A DNA stretch of 64,000 bases from Promethearchaeota archaeon. GTDB lineage: Archaea > Asgardarchaeota > Lokiarchaeia > Sigyniarchaeales > SOKP01. The notes under the pieces were generated by a model, which was not told the origin of the DNA, did not search any database, and saw nothing but the letters and a program-made list of their open reading frames with translations. The stretch is taken from contig JAUVXW010000005.1 in NCBI GenBank assembly GCA_030603385.1, forward strand, positions 64,001 through 128,000, given 5' to 3'. Numbering within the stretch: position 1 is the stretch's first letter; every line of letters begins with the position of its first letter. This document shows positions 62,244 through 63,812 of the stretch, one piece after another. Made by a program: the position numbers and the translations under genes.

Positions 62244-63812
62244 ATGAAATTATCAGTTAAAGAAATCAATTTTGAAACAGGAAATACTAAAAATATTGTT
62301 TTAAACATTAAAGATGCACAAGAATTAGGACAAAAAGCAGGAGAGCGTATATTTATCAAAAATCTGCATTCTAAAACTATAGAAGATAAATTTTGGACAG
62401 CTATTATACAAATAGATTATTCAAGCACAATAGTAAAATCCGGTGAAATTGGGATCTTCTTAGATATATTACGAGAAAAAAAGAGTTTGAAAAATAGCAT
62501 TATGGTATCTGTGAAACCAGCTGATCCACCTGAATCTTTCAAATTTATTCAAAAGAAAATTAAAGGAAATAAGTTGAAAAGTGAGGAAATTAATGCTATT
62601 ATCTCTGATGCAGTTTCAGGGTCATTATCTCGAATTGATCTAGCAGCGTTTATCACAGGAGTCTCTATTATCGGAATGGATAAAGAAGAGATGACAGCAT
62701 TAACCTTAGCAGAAACTAAGAGTGGGGAGATATTTTATTTCGGGATGGATGTCTATGATAAGCACAGTACAGAAATTTACATTTAGTAAGTTTTGCTGAT
62801 TGGTGGCGTCCCAGGGAATAAGGTTTCTCTTATTATTGTTCCAATTGTAGCAGCAGCGGGCCTAACTATTCCAAAATCTTCAACCAGAGCAATAACATCA
62901 CCTTCAGGGACGGCAGATTCAATGGAAGTATTAGCACCAGTTGCATTTAACCCAAATGAACTAAATGAAATCGTGTCTAAAGAAAATGCATGCATAATTT
63001 GGGGTGGAGCGCTTGAAACCGCGCCAGCAGATAATATTTTAATCGAGATTGAACGACCTTTACATATGGATCCAGTAGGCCTTATGATTCCTTCAATACT
63101 CACTAAAAAACTTTCATTAGGTGTTAAAAAACTTGTTCTTGATATCCCTGTTGGAGAAGGCACTAAATTTCCAACTCCCGCTAATGGAAAACAATTTGCT
63201 TATTTATTTAAAGAAATTGCCGCTAATGTAGGAATTGAAGCAGAATGTGCATTAACATTAGCTCATCAACCAATTGGCCATGCTGTAGGACCAGCGATAG
63301 AAGCAAGGGAAGCTTTAAATTTACTAATGGATTATTCTGCTGGACCGAATTCTTTGGTAGAAAAATCTACTGATTTAGCCGGAATTATTCTTGAAATGAG
63401 TGGAAAAGCTCAGAAAGGTATGGGTCAAAGTCTAGCGAAAGATATTCTGCGTTCTGGTAAAGCTTATGAGAAAATGAAAAGAATTATTGATGCTCAAGGT
63501 GGTAATCCTGATATAAAATCTGATGAAATTGAGCTTGGACCATATATGAAAGAATTTTTTGCCGCAAAAGAAGGATATATAGTCGAAGTAAATAACTCAA
63601 TAATAAATCAAATAGCAAAAACAGCTGGATGTCCTAGCTCGAAGAGTTCTGGTGTGGAAATAATAAAAAAACAAGGAGCAAAGGTAAAAGAGGGAGATAT
63701 TGTTTTCAGGATTTATTCTCATAGCCAATCCAAACTAAGAAAAGCAGAAAAAATCTACAATTCTACTGGTGGCCCAATTCGTCTTGGAGGAATGATCATC
63801 GAACGTATTTAA
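62244..63812 (+). CDS. deoA: AMP phosphorylase (thymidine phosphorylase family), split by a 30-nt putative intron; 512 aa when joined
   Basis: Two same-frame ORFs; N-terminal extension, KKIKG, DKHS[insert]GGVPGNK, KSSTRAITSPSGTAD.MEVL, DIPVG.GTK, QPIG.AVGP. Confidence 0.9.
62771..62800 (+). other. Putative bulge-helix-bulge-type mRNA intron (30 nt)
   Basis: CAGT/GCTG 4-bp helix, bulges ACA and ATT, inner 9-bp stem GAAATTTAC/GTAAGTTTT; contains TAG-TAA; removal gives KHSTGGVPGNK. Confidence 0.7.

What the first reader, a model, noticed from the sequence alone, without database searches (positions are those of the whole stretch)
62760..62810. Probable bulge-helix-bulge intron inside a protein-coding gene (AMP phosphorylase)
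Seen: the two AMP phosphorylase ORFs are in the same frame, separated by exactly 30 extra nt carrying TAG-TAA, in the middle of the motif DKHS[T/I]GGVPGNK. The RNA can fold as a 4-bp helix CAGU(62765-68)/GCUG(62795-98), 3-nt bulge ACA(62769-71), inner 9-bp stem GAAAUUUAC/GUAAGUUUU with loop AUUUA, and a second bulge AUU(62799-801). The outer helix is weak, so this is a relaxed BHB/BHL form. Established: archaeal splicing endonuclease EndA cuts after the second nucleotide of each bulge; BHB introns in mRNA are known mainly from crenarchaeal cbf5. Applying that rule removes 62771-62800 and gives AGT-ACT-GGT-GGC = KHSTGGVPGNK and a 512-aa full-length enzyme. Inference: tRNA-type mRNA splicing of a metabolic gene in an Asgard archaeon, possibly a regulatory switch, conceptually like eukaryotic HAC1/XBP1 non-spliceosomal splicing. 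Both halves are otherwise undamaged, which argues against a decaying pseudogene.
Basis: partly seen in the sequence, partly recalled or inferred. Interest (0 to 1): 0.92.

Follow-up and report, generated by a model that had tools for sequence, protein, structure and literature searches.

The report
tRNA-type mini-intron in Asgard AMP phosphorylase
The only AMP phosphorylase gene of this Lokiarchaeial (Asgard) archaeon is interrupted in its active-site motif by a 30-base hairpin shaped like an archaeal tRNA intron; 35 related species keep the insert with compensating mutations, so the mRNA almost certainly has to be cut and rejoined by the tRNA-splicing enzymes before the enzyme can be made.

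Summary
Window 62244-62786 and 62799-63812 are two in-frame halves of one AMP phosphorylase gene (TIGR03327 positions 2-165 and 166-500). They are separated by 30 nt (62771-62800) carrying TAG-TAA inside DKHS-T-GGVPGNK.

The decisive evidence is comparative:
- 35 distinct genes from at least 10 genera of one Promethearchaeota (Lokiarchaeia) family carry a 29-, 30- or 31-nt insert at exactly this site.
- 97.9% of base-pair cells are kept, and 10 of 13 pairs show compensatory double changes. One of these is an exon/intron swap in the central helix.
- Cutting after the second base of each bulge always gives ACN (Thr).
- Both exons are under the same purifying selection as in intronless relatives (dN/dS about 0.08-0.14).
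- 14 of the 33 distinct insert sequences leave no start codon for exon 2, and 29/31-nt inserts shift the frame.
- The genome encodes a two-subunit (alpha-beta) EndA and RtcB.

Pseudogene, split protein, readthrough, ribosomal hopping and assembly error are rejected. The HAC1-like "regulatory switch" idea has no support, because the intron was lost precisely many times.

This scan has already followed up the same intron in other genomes. I found no paper describing it.

The parts
62244..62770 (+). Exon 1 of AMP phosphorylase: Met1 to Ser175 plus the first two bases (AC) of the Thr176 codon
   Evidence: ORF list. Pfam Glycos_trans_3N. TIGR03327 positions 2-165. dN/dS 0.137 among intron-bearing genes.
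62765..62768 (+). Central helix H, 5' strand (exon, CAGU: last base of the His codon plus the Ser codon)
   Evidence: Pairs with 62795-98. Paired in 100% of 33 sequences, with a UA (24) to CG (9) double change. Ser is AGY in all 35 intron-bearing genes but TCN in 33 of 69 intronless ones.
62769..62771 (+). 5' bulge ACA; predicted cut after 62770
   Evidence: ACA in 30 and ACU in 3 of 33 sequences. The rule of cutting after the second bulge base is established knowledge of EndA, not tested here.
62771..62800 (+). The 30-nt intron (1 nt + 23-nt hairpin + 4 nt + 2 nt), containing in-frame TAG TAA
   Evidence: Orthologous inserts of 29, 30 or 31 nt occur at the same site in 35 genes, and the length change lies in the loop.
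62772..62794 (+). Intron hairpin h': 9-bp stem (62772-80 / 62786-94) with loop 62781-85
   Evidence: 97% of cells paired. 8 of 9 pairs show changes on both sides, and L049, L052 and L016 have entirely different stem sequences.
62795..62798 (+). Central helix H, 3' strand (intron, GCUG)
62799..62801 (+). 3' bulge AUU; predicted cut after 62800, so U62801 becomes the third base of the Thr codon
   Evidence: The bulge is AAA in 26 of 33 sequences, otherwise AUU, ACU, AAC, AAU, AAG or ACA. The junction codon is ACN in all of them.
62801..63812 (+). Exon 2: third base of Thr176, Gly177 to the end, and the stop codon (63810-63812)
   Evidence: Pfam Glycos_transf_3 + PYNP_C. TIGR03327 positions 166-500. 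dN/dS 0.080 among intron-bearing genes.

Best explanation
Positions 62771-62800 are a bulge-helix-bulge (HBh' class) intron inside the coding sequence of the genome's single AMP phosphorylase gene.

Proposed mechanism:
1. In the pre-mRNA, the last four exon bases before the break (CAGU) pair with four intron bases (GCUG). This forms the 4-bp central helix.
2. A 9-bp intron hairpin stacks on the helix, and a 3-nt bulge follows each strand of it.
3. The heterotetrameric (alpha-beta)2 splicing endonuclease EndA cuts after the second base of each bulge.
4. RtcB joins the exons, and probably circularises the 30-nt intron.
5. The junction reads AGU-ACU-GGU. This restores DKHSTGGVPGNK and a 512-aa enzyme.

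Unspliced mRNA can only give a 180-aa N-terminal fragment.

The intron most likely entered once, at the base of this Lokiarchaeial family, was inherited vertically and was lost precisely many times.

What is shown: the structure, its conservation and covariation, selection on both exons, the impossibility of translating exon 2 otherwise in many species, and the presence of the enzymes. What is inferred: the cleavage and ligation themselves, the exact cut positions, and the history.
For: Distribution:
- Inserts of 29, 30 or 31 nt lie at the identical site in 35 distinct genes from at least 10 genera of one family.
- All four other-family loci and the remaining 65 genes are uninterrupted, with exactly 0 extra bases.

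Structure:
- 97.9% of 429 pair cells form standard pairs.
- 10 of 13 pairs have changes on both sides.
- 0 of 500 shuffles reach the observed values, and slid registers pair in 49% of cells or fewer.
- RNAalifold finds the same structure unaided.
- The central helix covaries between exon and intron: UA in 24 sequences, CG in 9.

Splice product:
- The junction codon under the EndA rule is ACN = Thr in all 33 distinct sequences.
- The two exons abut at TIGR03327 positions 165|166.

The gene is functional:
- dN/dS is 0.137 (exon 1) and 0.080 (exon 2), against 0.115 and 0.068 in intronless genes.
- No spliced CDS has any other stop.
- It is the only copy in G000.
- A RuBisCO large-subunit homologue (probably form III) and an adjacent ribose-1,5-bisphosphate isomerase-like gene are present.

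Machinery:
- There are two EndA paralogues of about 200 aa.
- One has the Tyr/His/Lys catalytic residues. It is closest to chain B of solved EndA entries 3p1z, 3ajv and 2zyz, which I recall as crenarchaeal catalytic subunits.
- The other lacks the His and matches the N-terminal, structural half of the two-unit EndA model.
- RtcB is intact.

Host context:
- ARAGORN finds only 18 tRNAs, 7 of them with introns.
- At least four other protein genes in G000 carry inserts of the same layout.
Against: There is no RNA evidence.

The exon-exon outer helix is missing, so the 3' bulge is not closed. Cleavage therefore depends on a broad-specificity EndA, which is inferred from sequence only.

The single-sequence fold of the window's copy is not better than shuffles, and its minimum-energy structure uses another register.

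A genome-wide scan for the motif joined to open frames gave no excess over a mirror-image control (1920 versus 1906 hits). Geometry alone is therefore weak evidence; the case rests on the comparative data.

A cut one base later on both sides would give the same protein, so the exact cut sites cannot be fixed from sequence.
Confidence: 0.88

Rival explanations
1. The hairpin is removed from the RNA, but by a nuclease other than EndA, or by an unknown ribonucleoprotein that recognises the hairpin and bulges. The BHB likeness would then be only partial.
For: The 3' bulge lacks an outer helix. No cleavage assay exists for any Asgard EndA. All mini-introns seen share a very narrow size (29-33 nt) and a terminal AA, which EndA alone does not obviously require.
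Against: The 4-bp helix, the two 3-nt bulges on opposite strands and the flanking helix are exactly the HBh' class, and the EndA cut rule gives Thr in every species. The genome has the two-subunit EndA type, which the literature links to relaxed motifs and to the cbf5 mRNA intron (PMC5829648; title of Yoshinari 2006, cited there). No IRE1-type nuclease domain was found, although that search had no positive control.
Confidence: 0.05
2. Translational recoding: the ribosome bypasses (hops over) the insert, reads through it or frameshifts, so no RNA splicing is needed.
For: A stable hairpin next to a stop codon recalls phage T4 gene 60 bypassing (my own knowledge). In the window's copy an AUU precedes the UAG and another AUU precedes GGU.
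Against: There are no matched take-off and landing codons across species: ACA/ACU before the insert, mostly AAA at its end. The AUU...AUU pair exists only in L003 and L004, and using it would insert TEIY into an invariant motif. Readthrough would have to pass one to several stops and would add 10 residues to the phosphate loop. Inserts of 29 and 31 nt shift the frame. Covariation between four exon bases and four intron bases is not explained.
Confidence: 0.03
3. The gene is dead or split. Either it is a pseudogene, or the two halves are made as separate polypeptides that assemble.
For: Standard gene calling gives two ORFs. In genus g1 a TTG lies three codons before exon 2.
Against: Both exons evolve under dN/dS 0.08-0.14, the same as intronless orthologues, with no other lesion in 35 genes. 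In 14 of the 33 distinct insert sequences a TAG lies two codons before exon 2 with no start codon after it. The break falls inside the invariant phosphate-binding motif. The insert itself is conserved as a structure. The gene has persisted across at least 10 genera.
Confidence: 0.02
4. Splicing occurs as in the best explanation but is conditional: a HAC1/XBP1-like switch that sets the level of AMP phosphorylase.
For: The intron has been retained for a long time in many lineages, and it sits in the only copy of the gene.
Against: The intron state needs 19 changes on the gene tree, at least 11 of them forced by well-supported branches, and close relatives differ. Selection on the gene is the same with and without it. 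Unrelated genes (uvrB, an AAA ATPase, dodecin, a LOR-like protein) carry similar inserts, which suggests a general genomic population rather than a gene-specific device. No sensor is known.
Confidence: 0.08
5. The insert is an assembly or sequencing artefact.
For: None beyond the fact that the window comes from a metagenome-assembled genome (6.99% contamination).
Against: The insert is present, with divergent sequences, in 35 genes recovered from many assemblies belonging to several projects.
Confidence: 0.005

Closest known systems
BHB intron in the cbf5 (pseudouridine synthase) pre-mRNA of Crenarchaeota (Watanabe 2002; Yoshinari 2006; Yokobori 2009, PMC2738675)
   Same: Both are short BHB-type introns inside a protein-coding sequence, in hosts with a hetero-oligomeric EndA. 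Both are old in a clade and were lost secondarily in some lineages. Both make gene callers split the gene.
   Different: The gene differs (a metabolic enzyme, interrupted in its active-site motif) and so does the phylum (Asgard, Lokiarchaeia). Losses are far more numerous (at least 11, against at least 2). This intron is one of several coding-sequence introns in the same genome, whereas cbf5 is described as the only one. Splicing of cbf5 was shown experimentally; splicing here was not.
Non-canonical (HBh') introns of archaeal pre-tRNAs, abundant in Thermoproteales and Asgard archaea (Marck and Grosjean 2003; bioRxiv 10.64898/2026.10.13.758758; PMC11291895)
   Same: The motif class is the same: 4-bp helix made of exon and intron, 3-nt bulges, intron helix. 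The predicted enzymes are the same (alpha-beta EndA, RtcB), and so is the intron-rich host group.
   Different: The substrate is an mRNA. The surrounding RNA offers no tRNA body, and the product must keep a reading frame.
BHB intron in the 5' UTR of Haloferax volcanii HVO_1309 mRNA (PMC7714728)
   Same: An mRNA cleaved by EndA at a BHB motif.
   Different: That intron lies in the untranslated leader and does not interrupt the protein.
HAC1/XBP1 unconventional mRNA splicing in eukaryotes (IRE1 nuclease; RtcB ligase in animals)
   Same: Non-spliceosomal, protein-catalysed excision of a short intron from a coding sequence, with the ends joined by a tRNA ligase.
   Different: IRE1 cuts in two 7-nt loops, not in 3-nt bulges. 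No IRE1-type nuclease domain was found here (no positive control). HAC1/XBP1 splicing is a stress switch, and nothing here points to regulation.

Membership tests
Archaeal bulge-helix-bulge (BHB) intron | [quoted passage not shown] | tested here: met
   62765-68 pairs with 62795-98. The helix is paired in 100% of 33 distinct orthologous sequences, with a compensatory UA/CG change.
Archaeal bulge-helix-bulge (BHB) intron | Two 3-nt bulges on opposite strands, each 3' of its strand of the central helix | tested here: met
   The bulges are ACA 62769-71 and AUU 62799-801. Both are exactly 3 nt in all 33 sequences; the length variation (29-31 nt) lies only in the hairpin loop. The 3' bulge is not closed by an outer helix.
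Archaeal bulge-helix-bulge (BHB) intron | At least one flanking helix of 2 bp or more (h or h') | tested here: met
   The intron helix h' has 9 bp, 97% paired, and 8 of 9 pairs covary. The exon helix h is absent: an A.G mismatch, then C-G and one pair kept in 28 of 33. The class is therefore HBh'.
Archaeal bulge-helix-bulge (BHB) intron | Excision at the bulges restores a functional sequence | tested here: met
   The junction codon is ACN = Thr in all sequences. The exons abut at positions 165|166 of TIGR03327. The spliced CDS is open in all 35 genes.
Archaeal bulge-helix-bulge (BHB) intron | The host has an EndA type able to cut relaxed motifs ((alpha-beta)2 or epsilon2) | tested here: met
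   There are two paralogues. L001 has the Tyr/His/Lys catalytic residues and best matches chain B of 3p1z, 3ajv and 2zyz. L002 lacks the His and matches the N-terminal half of the two-unit model. The subunit roles are inferred from sequence.
Archaeal bulge-helix-bulge (BHB) intron | Actual cleavage by EndA and ligation by RtcB in vivo or in vitro | not testable with these tools
The RtcB gene is present.
HAC1/XBP1-type unconventional splicing | IRE1 kinase-nuclease and cut sites in two 7-nt loops | tested here: not met
   The cut sites lie in 3-nt bulges. No Ribonuc_2-5A domain was found in G000, but the search had no positive control and the genome is 94% complete.
Programmed translational bypassing (T4 gene 60 type) | Matching take-off and landing codons flanking the gap | tested here: not met
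   The gap is flanked by ACA/ACU on the 5' side and mostly AAA on the 3' side. No conserved match exists across the 33 sequences.
AMP phosphorylase (TIGR03327, DeoA-like, archaeal AMP pathway) | Full-length match to the equivalog model above its cut-off | tested here: inconclusive
   Exon 1 scores 107 bits (positions 2-165) and exon 2 scores 450.4 bits (positions 166-500). A simple sum of 557 exceeds the cut-off of 535, but the joined protein was not scored as one sequence. A RuBisCO large-subunit homologue and an isomerase-like partner gene are present.

The most novel reading that the evidence does not exclude
The AMP phosphorylase intron may be the oldest visible member of a population of 29-33-nt mini-introns that colonise protein-coding genes of Lokiarchaeia. 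I checked uvrB, an AAA ATPase, dodecin and a LOR-like gene here; earlier notes of this scan flag histones, alba, rpoA' and iorB. These introns would be gained repeatedly, perhaps by reverse splicing and retro-insertion, and lost precisely. If so, these relatives of eukaryotes routinely splice mRNAs with the tRNA machinery. They would then need some way to keep ribosomes off unspliced transcripts, which is a form of uncoupling of transcription and translation.
Probability: 0.35. Interest if true: 0.92.

Novelty: new member of a known kind. Interest (0 to 1): 0.78.

Why it matters
BHB introns inside archaeal protein-coding sequences are documented, in the papers I could search, for a single gene (cbf5 of Crenarchaeota), plus one 5'-UTR case in Haloferax (PMC7714728).

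This case differs in several ways:
- It is a well-supported second gene family, in the archaeal group closest to eukaryotes.
- The intron sits in the active site of a metabolic enzyme, so expression must depend on mRNA splicing.
- It is kept across a whole family yet lost again and again.
- At least four further genes of the same genome carry inserts of the same layout.

Practical consequence: gene callers split or truncate these genes, so metabolic reconstructions of Asgard genomes will wrongly score them as broken.

Conceptual consequence: routine protein-catalysed mRNA splicing in Asgard archaea bears on how intron-containing genes and translation could coexist before the nucleus. The question is directly testable with RT-PCR on cultured or enriched Lokiarchaeia.

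Tried and rejected

**Single-sequence folding**. It was not informative: z = -0.16, and the minimum-energy structure uses another register.

**Genome-wide count of such introns from structure alone.** I scanned both strands of G000 for H (4 bp) + 3-nt bulge + stem, joined to open frames on both sides. A mirror-image geometry served as the control.
- Hits were 1920 versus 1906.
- No clear excess appeared after filtering by stem length, intron length, codon-usage score or bulge sequence.
- The number of mRNA introns therefore cannot be estimated this way.
- True cases had to be picked out by motif restoration and homology.
- One high-ranking hit (C8:39130-39168) was simply two adjacent genes.

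**Sequence relatives of the AMPpase intron.** The covariance model R1 finds only the intron itself in G000 (53.4 bits; the next hit has E about 1). Only 150 of about 10,400 candidates were scored.

**Known RNA families.** Rfam has no match in 62500-63100.

**Rejected readings.**
- Pseudogene, split protein, readthrough, frameshift, hopping and assembly error: see the rival explanations.
- Intein, group I intron or group II intron: 30 nt is far too short, and there is no ORF or ribozyme.
- The shorter open frames (about 420 aa) of genus g12 looked like a second intron. They are only homologues that lack the N-terminal 95 residues or so.
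Full report
**What is in the window.**

The sequence reads GAT AAG CAC AGT ACA GAA ATT TAC ATT TAG TAA GTT TTG CTG ATT GGT GGC GTC CCA GGG AAT AAG. 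Two ORFs in one frame flank it: 62244-62786 (180 aa) and 62793/62799-63812.
- The first carries the Glycos_trans_3N helical bundle.
- The second carries Glycos_transf_3 and PYNP_C.
- Against NCBIfam they match the AMP phosphorylase equivalog TIGR03327 at positions 2-165 and 166-500. They are therefore two abutting pieces of one gene.
- It is the only such gene in the assembly.
- The assembly also holds a RuBisCO large-subunit homologue (probably form III) next to a ribose-1,5-bisphosphate isomerase-like gene. These are the partners of the archaeal AMP pathway.

The geometry is correct for a splicing-endonuclease substrate: each 3-nt bulge lies 3' of its strand of the 4-bp helix. The exon supplies the 5' strand and the intron the 3' strand, as in pre-tRNAs. 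The definition is restated in bioRxiv 10.64898/2026.10.13.758758.

**Is it more than chance?**

On the single sequence, no. The 66-nt fold is no better than shuffles (z = -0.16), and the minimum-energy structure slips to another register because CAG occurs twice.

A scan of the whole genome for this geometry joined to open frames gave as many hits as a mirror-image control: 1920 versus 1906. Geometry alone would not carry the claim.

**Comparative evidence.**

Searching the C-terminal exon in relatives showed that the open frame stops at about 338-340 aa in many species and runs to about 512-530 aa in others. I fetched the loci, which gave 104 distinct complete genes.
- 35 genes, from at least 10 genera of one family, carry an insert at exactly this site.
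- The other 69 have exactly zero extra bases. They include all loci from other families of the order.

Record titles name the organisms Promethearchaeota / Promethearchaeia, among them Loki_b31 and the ABR, YT and Hel_238 MAGs. The Asgard assignment therefore holds.

Insert lengths are 30 nt in most genes, 29 nt in two and 31 nt in three. The difference always lies in the hairpin loop.

On the alignment of 33 distinct sequences:
- 97.9% of 429 pair cells form standard pairs.
- 10 of 13 pairs show changes on both sides.
- None of 500 shuffles reaches any of the five observed measures.
- Sliding the 3' partners by 1-3 columns drops pairing to 28-49%.

RNAalifold, given only the alignment, returns the same H + bulge + h' structure. 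Several species have entirely different stems: AUAGCA/UGCUAU in L049, UAUAUUGAA/UUCAAUAUA in L052, CCUAU/AUAGG in L016.

The central helix is paired in every sequence. It covaries between exon and intron: the His codon's third base is U opposite intron A in 24 sequences and C opposite intron G in 9. All 35 intron-bearing genes use AGY for the Ser of DKHS, as the helix requires. Of the 69 intronless genes, 33 use TCN. That contrast is suggestive, although relatedness confounds it.

**What the cut must be.**

The second bulge is AAA, AUU, ACU, AAC, AAU, AAG or ACA. Kept as a codon it would read K, I, T or N at an invariant Thr. Cutting after the second base of each bulge gives ACN in all 33 sequences. 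Cuts one base later on both sides would give the same protein. In this window the two options differ at the RNA level (ACU versus ACA), so RNA-seq could tell them apart.

**The gene is alive and needs the insert removed.**
- Pairwise dN/dS among intron-bearing genes is 0.137 for exon 1 and 0.080 for exon 2. Intronless genes give 0.115 and 0.068.
- No spliced CDS has another stop.
- Every insert has a stop in the exon-1 frame.
- In 14 of the 33 distinct insert sequences a TAG lies two codons before exon 2 with no start codon after it.
- Inserts of 29 and 31 nt shift the frame.

This excludes a pseudogene, a split protein, readthrough and simple frameshifting. Hopping lacks matched take-off and landing codons. 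The number of independent assemblies excludes an artefact.

**Machinery.**

G000 encodes two EndA paralogues of about 200 aa.
- One has the Tyr, His and Lys of the catalytic site (...FVTYRLGPGLEHS...SVRKK...). It is closest to chain B of solved entries 3p1z, 3ajv and 2zyz. It matches the C-terminal half of the two-unit EndA model.
- The other lacks the His and matches the N-terminal half.

[quoted passage not shown] It was also reported in 44 of 60 Asgard genomes.

RtcB is intact. ARAGORN finds only 18 tRNA genes in a 94%-complete genome, 7 of them with introns. That fits the heavy, often non-canonical interruption of Asgard tRNA genes reported in PMC11291895 and in the 2026 preprint.

**History.**

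On a protein tree of 100 genes, the presence or absence of the intron needs 19 changes, at least 11 of them forced by well-supported branches.
- The outgroup families lack the intron.
- The deepest branches of the family carry it.
- Intron sequence types follow the gene clades.

One gain at the base of the family followed by many precise losses is the simplest reading. The tree cannot formally separate gain from loss. The window's nearest intronless relative (L005, 96% identical in the C-terminal exon) sits inside a clade of intron-bearing genes.

**Not a one-off.**

That layout is 1 nt + hairpin + 4 nt complementary to the exon + 2 nt, usually AA.
- A MadB/MoxR-like AAA ATPase has a 32-nt insert at C26:16566-16597(-). 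Its removal restores DEIDKAD|IEFPNDLL. Of 29 relatives with a hit spanning this site, 28 are continuous at about 285-300 aa, and G020 shares the insert.
- uvrB has a 30-nt insert at C4:251907-251936(+). Its removal restores YYDYYQPE|AY. None of the 54 other family genomes with a hit appears to carry it.
- A zinc-ribbon/LOR-like protein has a 30-nt insert at C55:17369-17398(+).
- Dodecin has a 32-nt insert at C11:21076-21107(+).

These inserts share no sequence with the AMPpase intron.

Earlier notes of this scan flag histones, alba, rpoA', iorB and a mutase subunit in the same genome. They also record that the same AMPpase intron was followed up in other genomes with the same conclusion. I treated those notes as leads only.

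**Compared with what is known.**

In the searchable literature the only BHB intron inside an archaeal coding sequence is that of crenarchaeal cbf5. One further BHB intron lies in a Haloferax 5' UTR (PMC7714728, PMC2738675). Five searches found nothing on BHB introns in Asgard mRNAs or in AMP phosphorylase. The mechanism is a known kind. The gene, the phylum, the scale of loss and the company of other mRNA introns are new.

**Limits.**

EndA subunit roles and specificity are inferred from sequence. The number of mRNA introns in the genome is unknown.

Noticed in passing
G000 C26:16566-16597 (-) = L146:967-998: A MadB/MoxR-like AAA ATPase is split by a 32-nt HBh' insert: helix GCAG/CUGU, bulges AUA and AAA, perfect 9-bp stem. 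Its removal restores DEIDKAD|IEFPNDLL. Of 29 relatives with a hit spanning this site, 28 are uninterrupted. G020 shares an insert identical at 30 of 32 bases, although closer relatives lack it.
   Followed up: yes
G000 C4:251907-251936 (+) = L189:408-437: uvrB is split by a 30-nt insert: helix CCAG/CUGG, bulges AAA and AAG, stem with one mismatch. Its removal restores the motif YYDYYQPE|AY. None of the 54 other family genomes with a hit appears to carry it, so it looks like a young gain.
   Followed up: partly
G000 C55:17369-17398 (+) = L147:770-799: A zinc-ribbon plus LURP-one-related (LOR/scramblase-like) protein is split by a 30-nt insert: helix UGGG/CCCA, bulges AUA and AAU, 8-bp stem. Exon 2 matches Pfam LOR positions 32-186.
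   Followed up: partly
G000 C11:21076-21107 (+) = L190:177-208: A dodecin-like small gene is split by a 32-nt frame-shifting insert: helix GGUU/AACU, both bulges AAA.
   Followed up: partly
G000, whole genome: ARAGORN finds only 18 tRNA genes, 7 of them with introns, in a 94%-complete genome. Most tRNA genes are probably interrupted at positions that the program cannot model.
   Followed up: no
L060-L063 (genus g12 of the same family): The AMP phosphorylase homologues of this genus start at about residue 95 of the window's protein (MSSISYD...). They lack the N-terminal domain and carry no intron at the DKHSTGG site.
   Followed up: partly
G097 C103:5011-6018 and C128:7402-8409: One MAG (9% contamination) holds two AMP phosphorylase genes, one intronless (93% identical to the window's) and one intron-bearing (86%). 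This could be two strains binned together or a real duplication.
   Followed up: no
G000 C10:140881-141723 (-), about 13 kb beyond the window's end on the same contig: A second, more divergent RuBisCO large-subunit homologue (167.6 bits, against 311.7 for the copy on C27) lies on the same contig as AMP phosphorylase.
   Followed up: no
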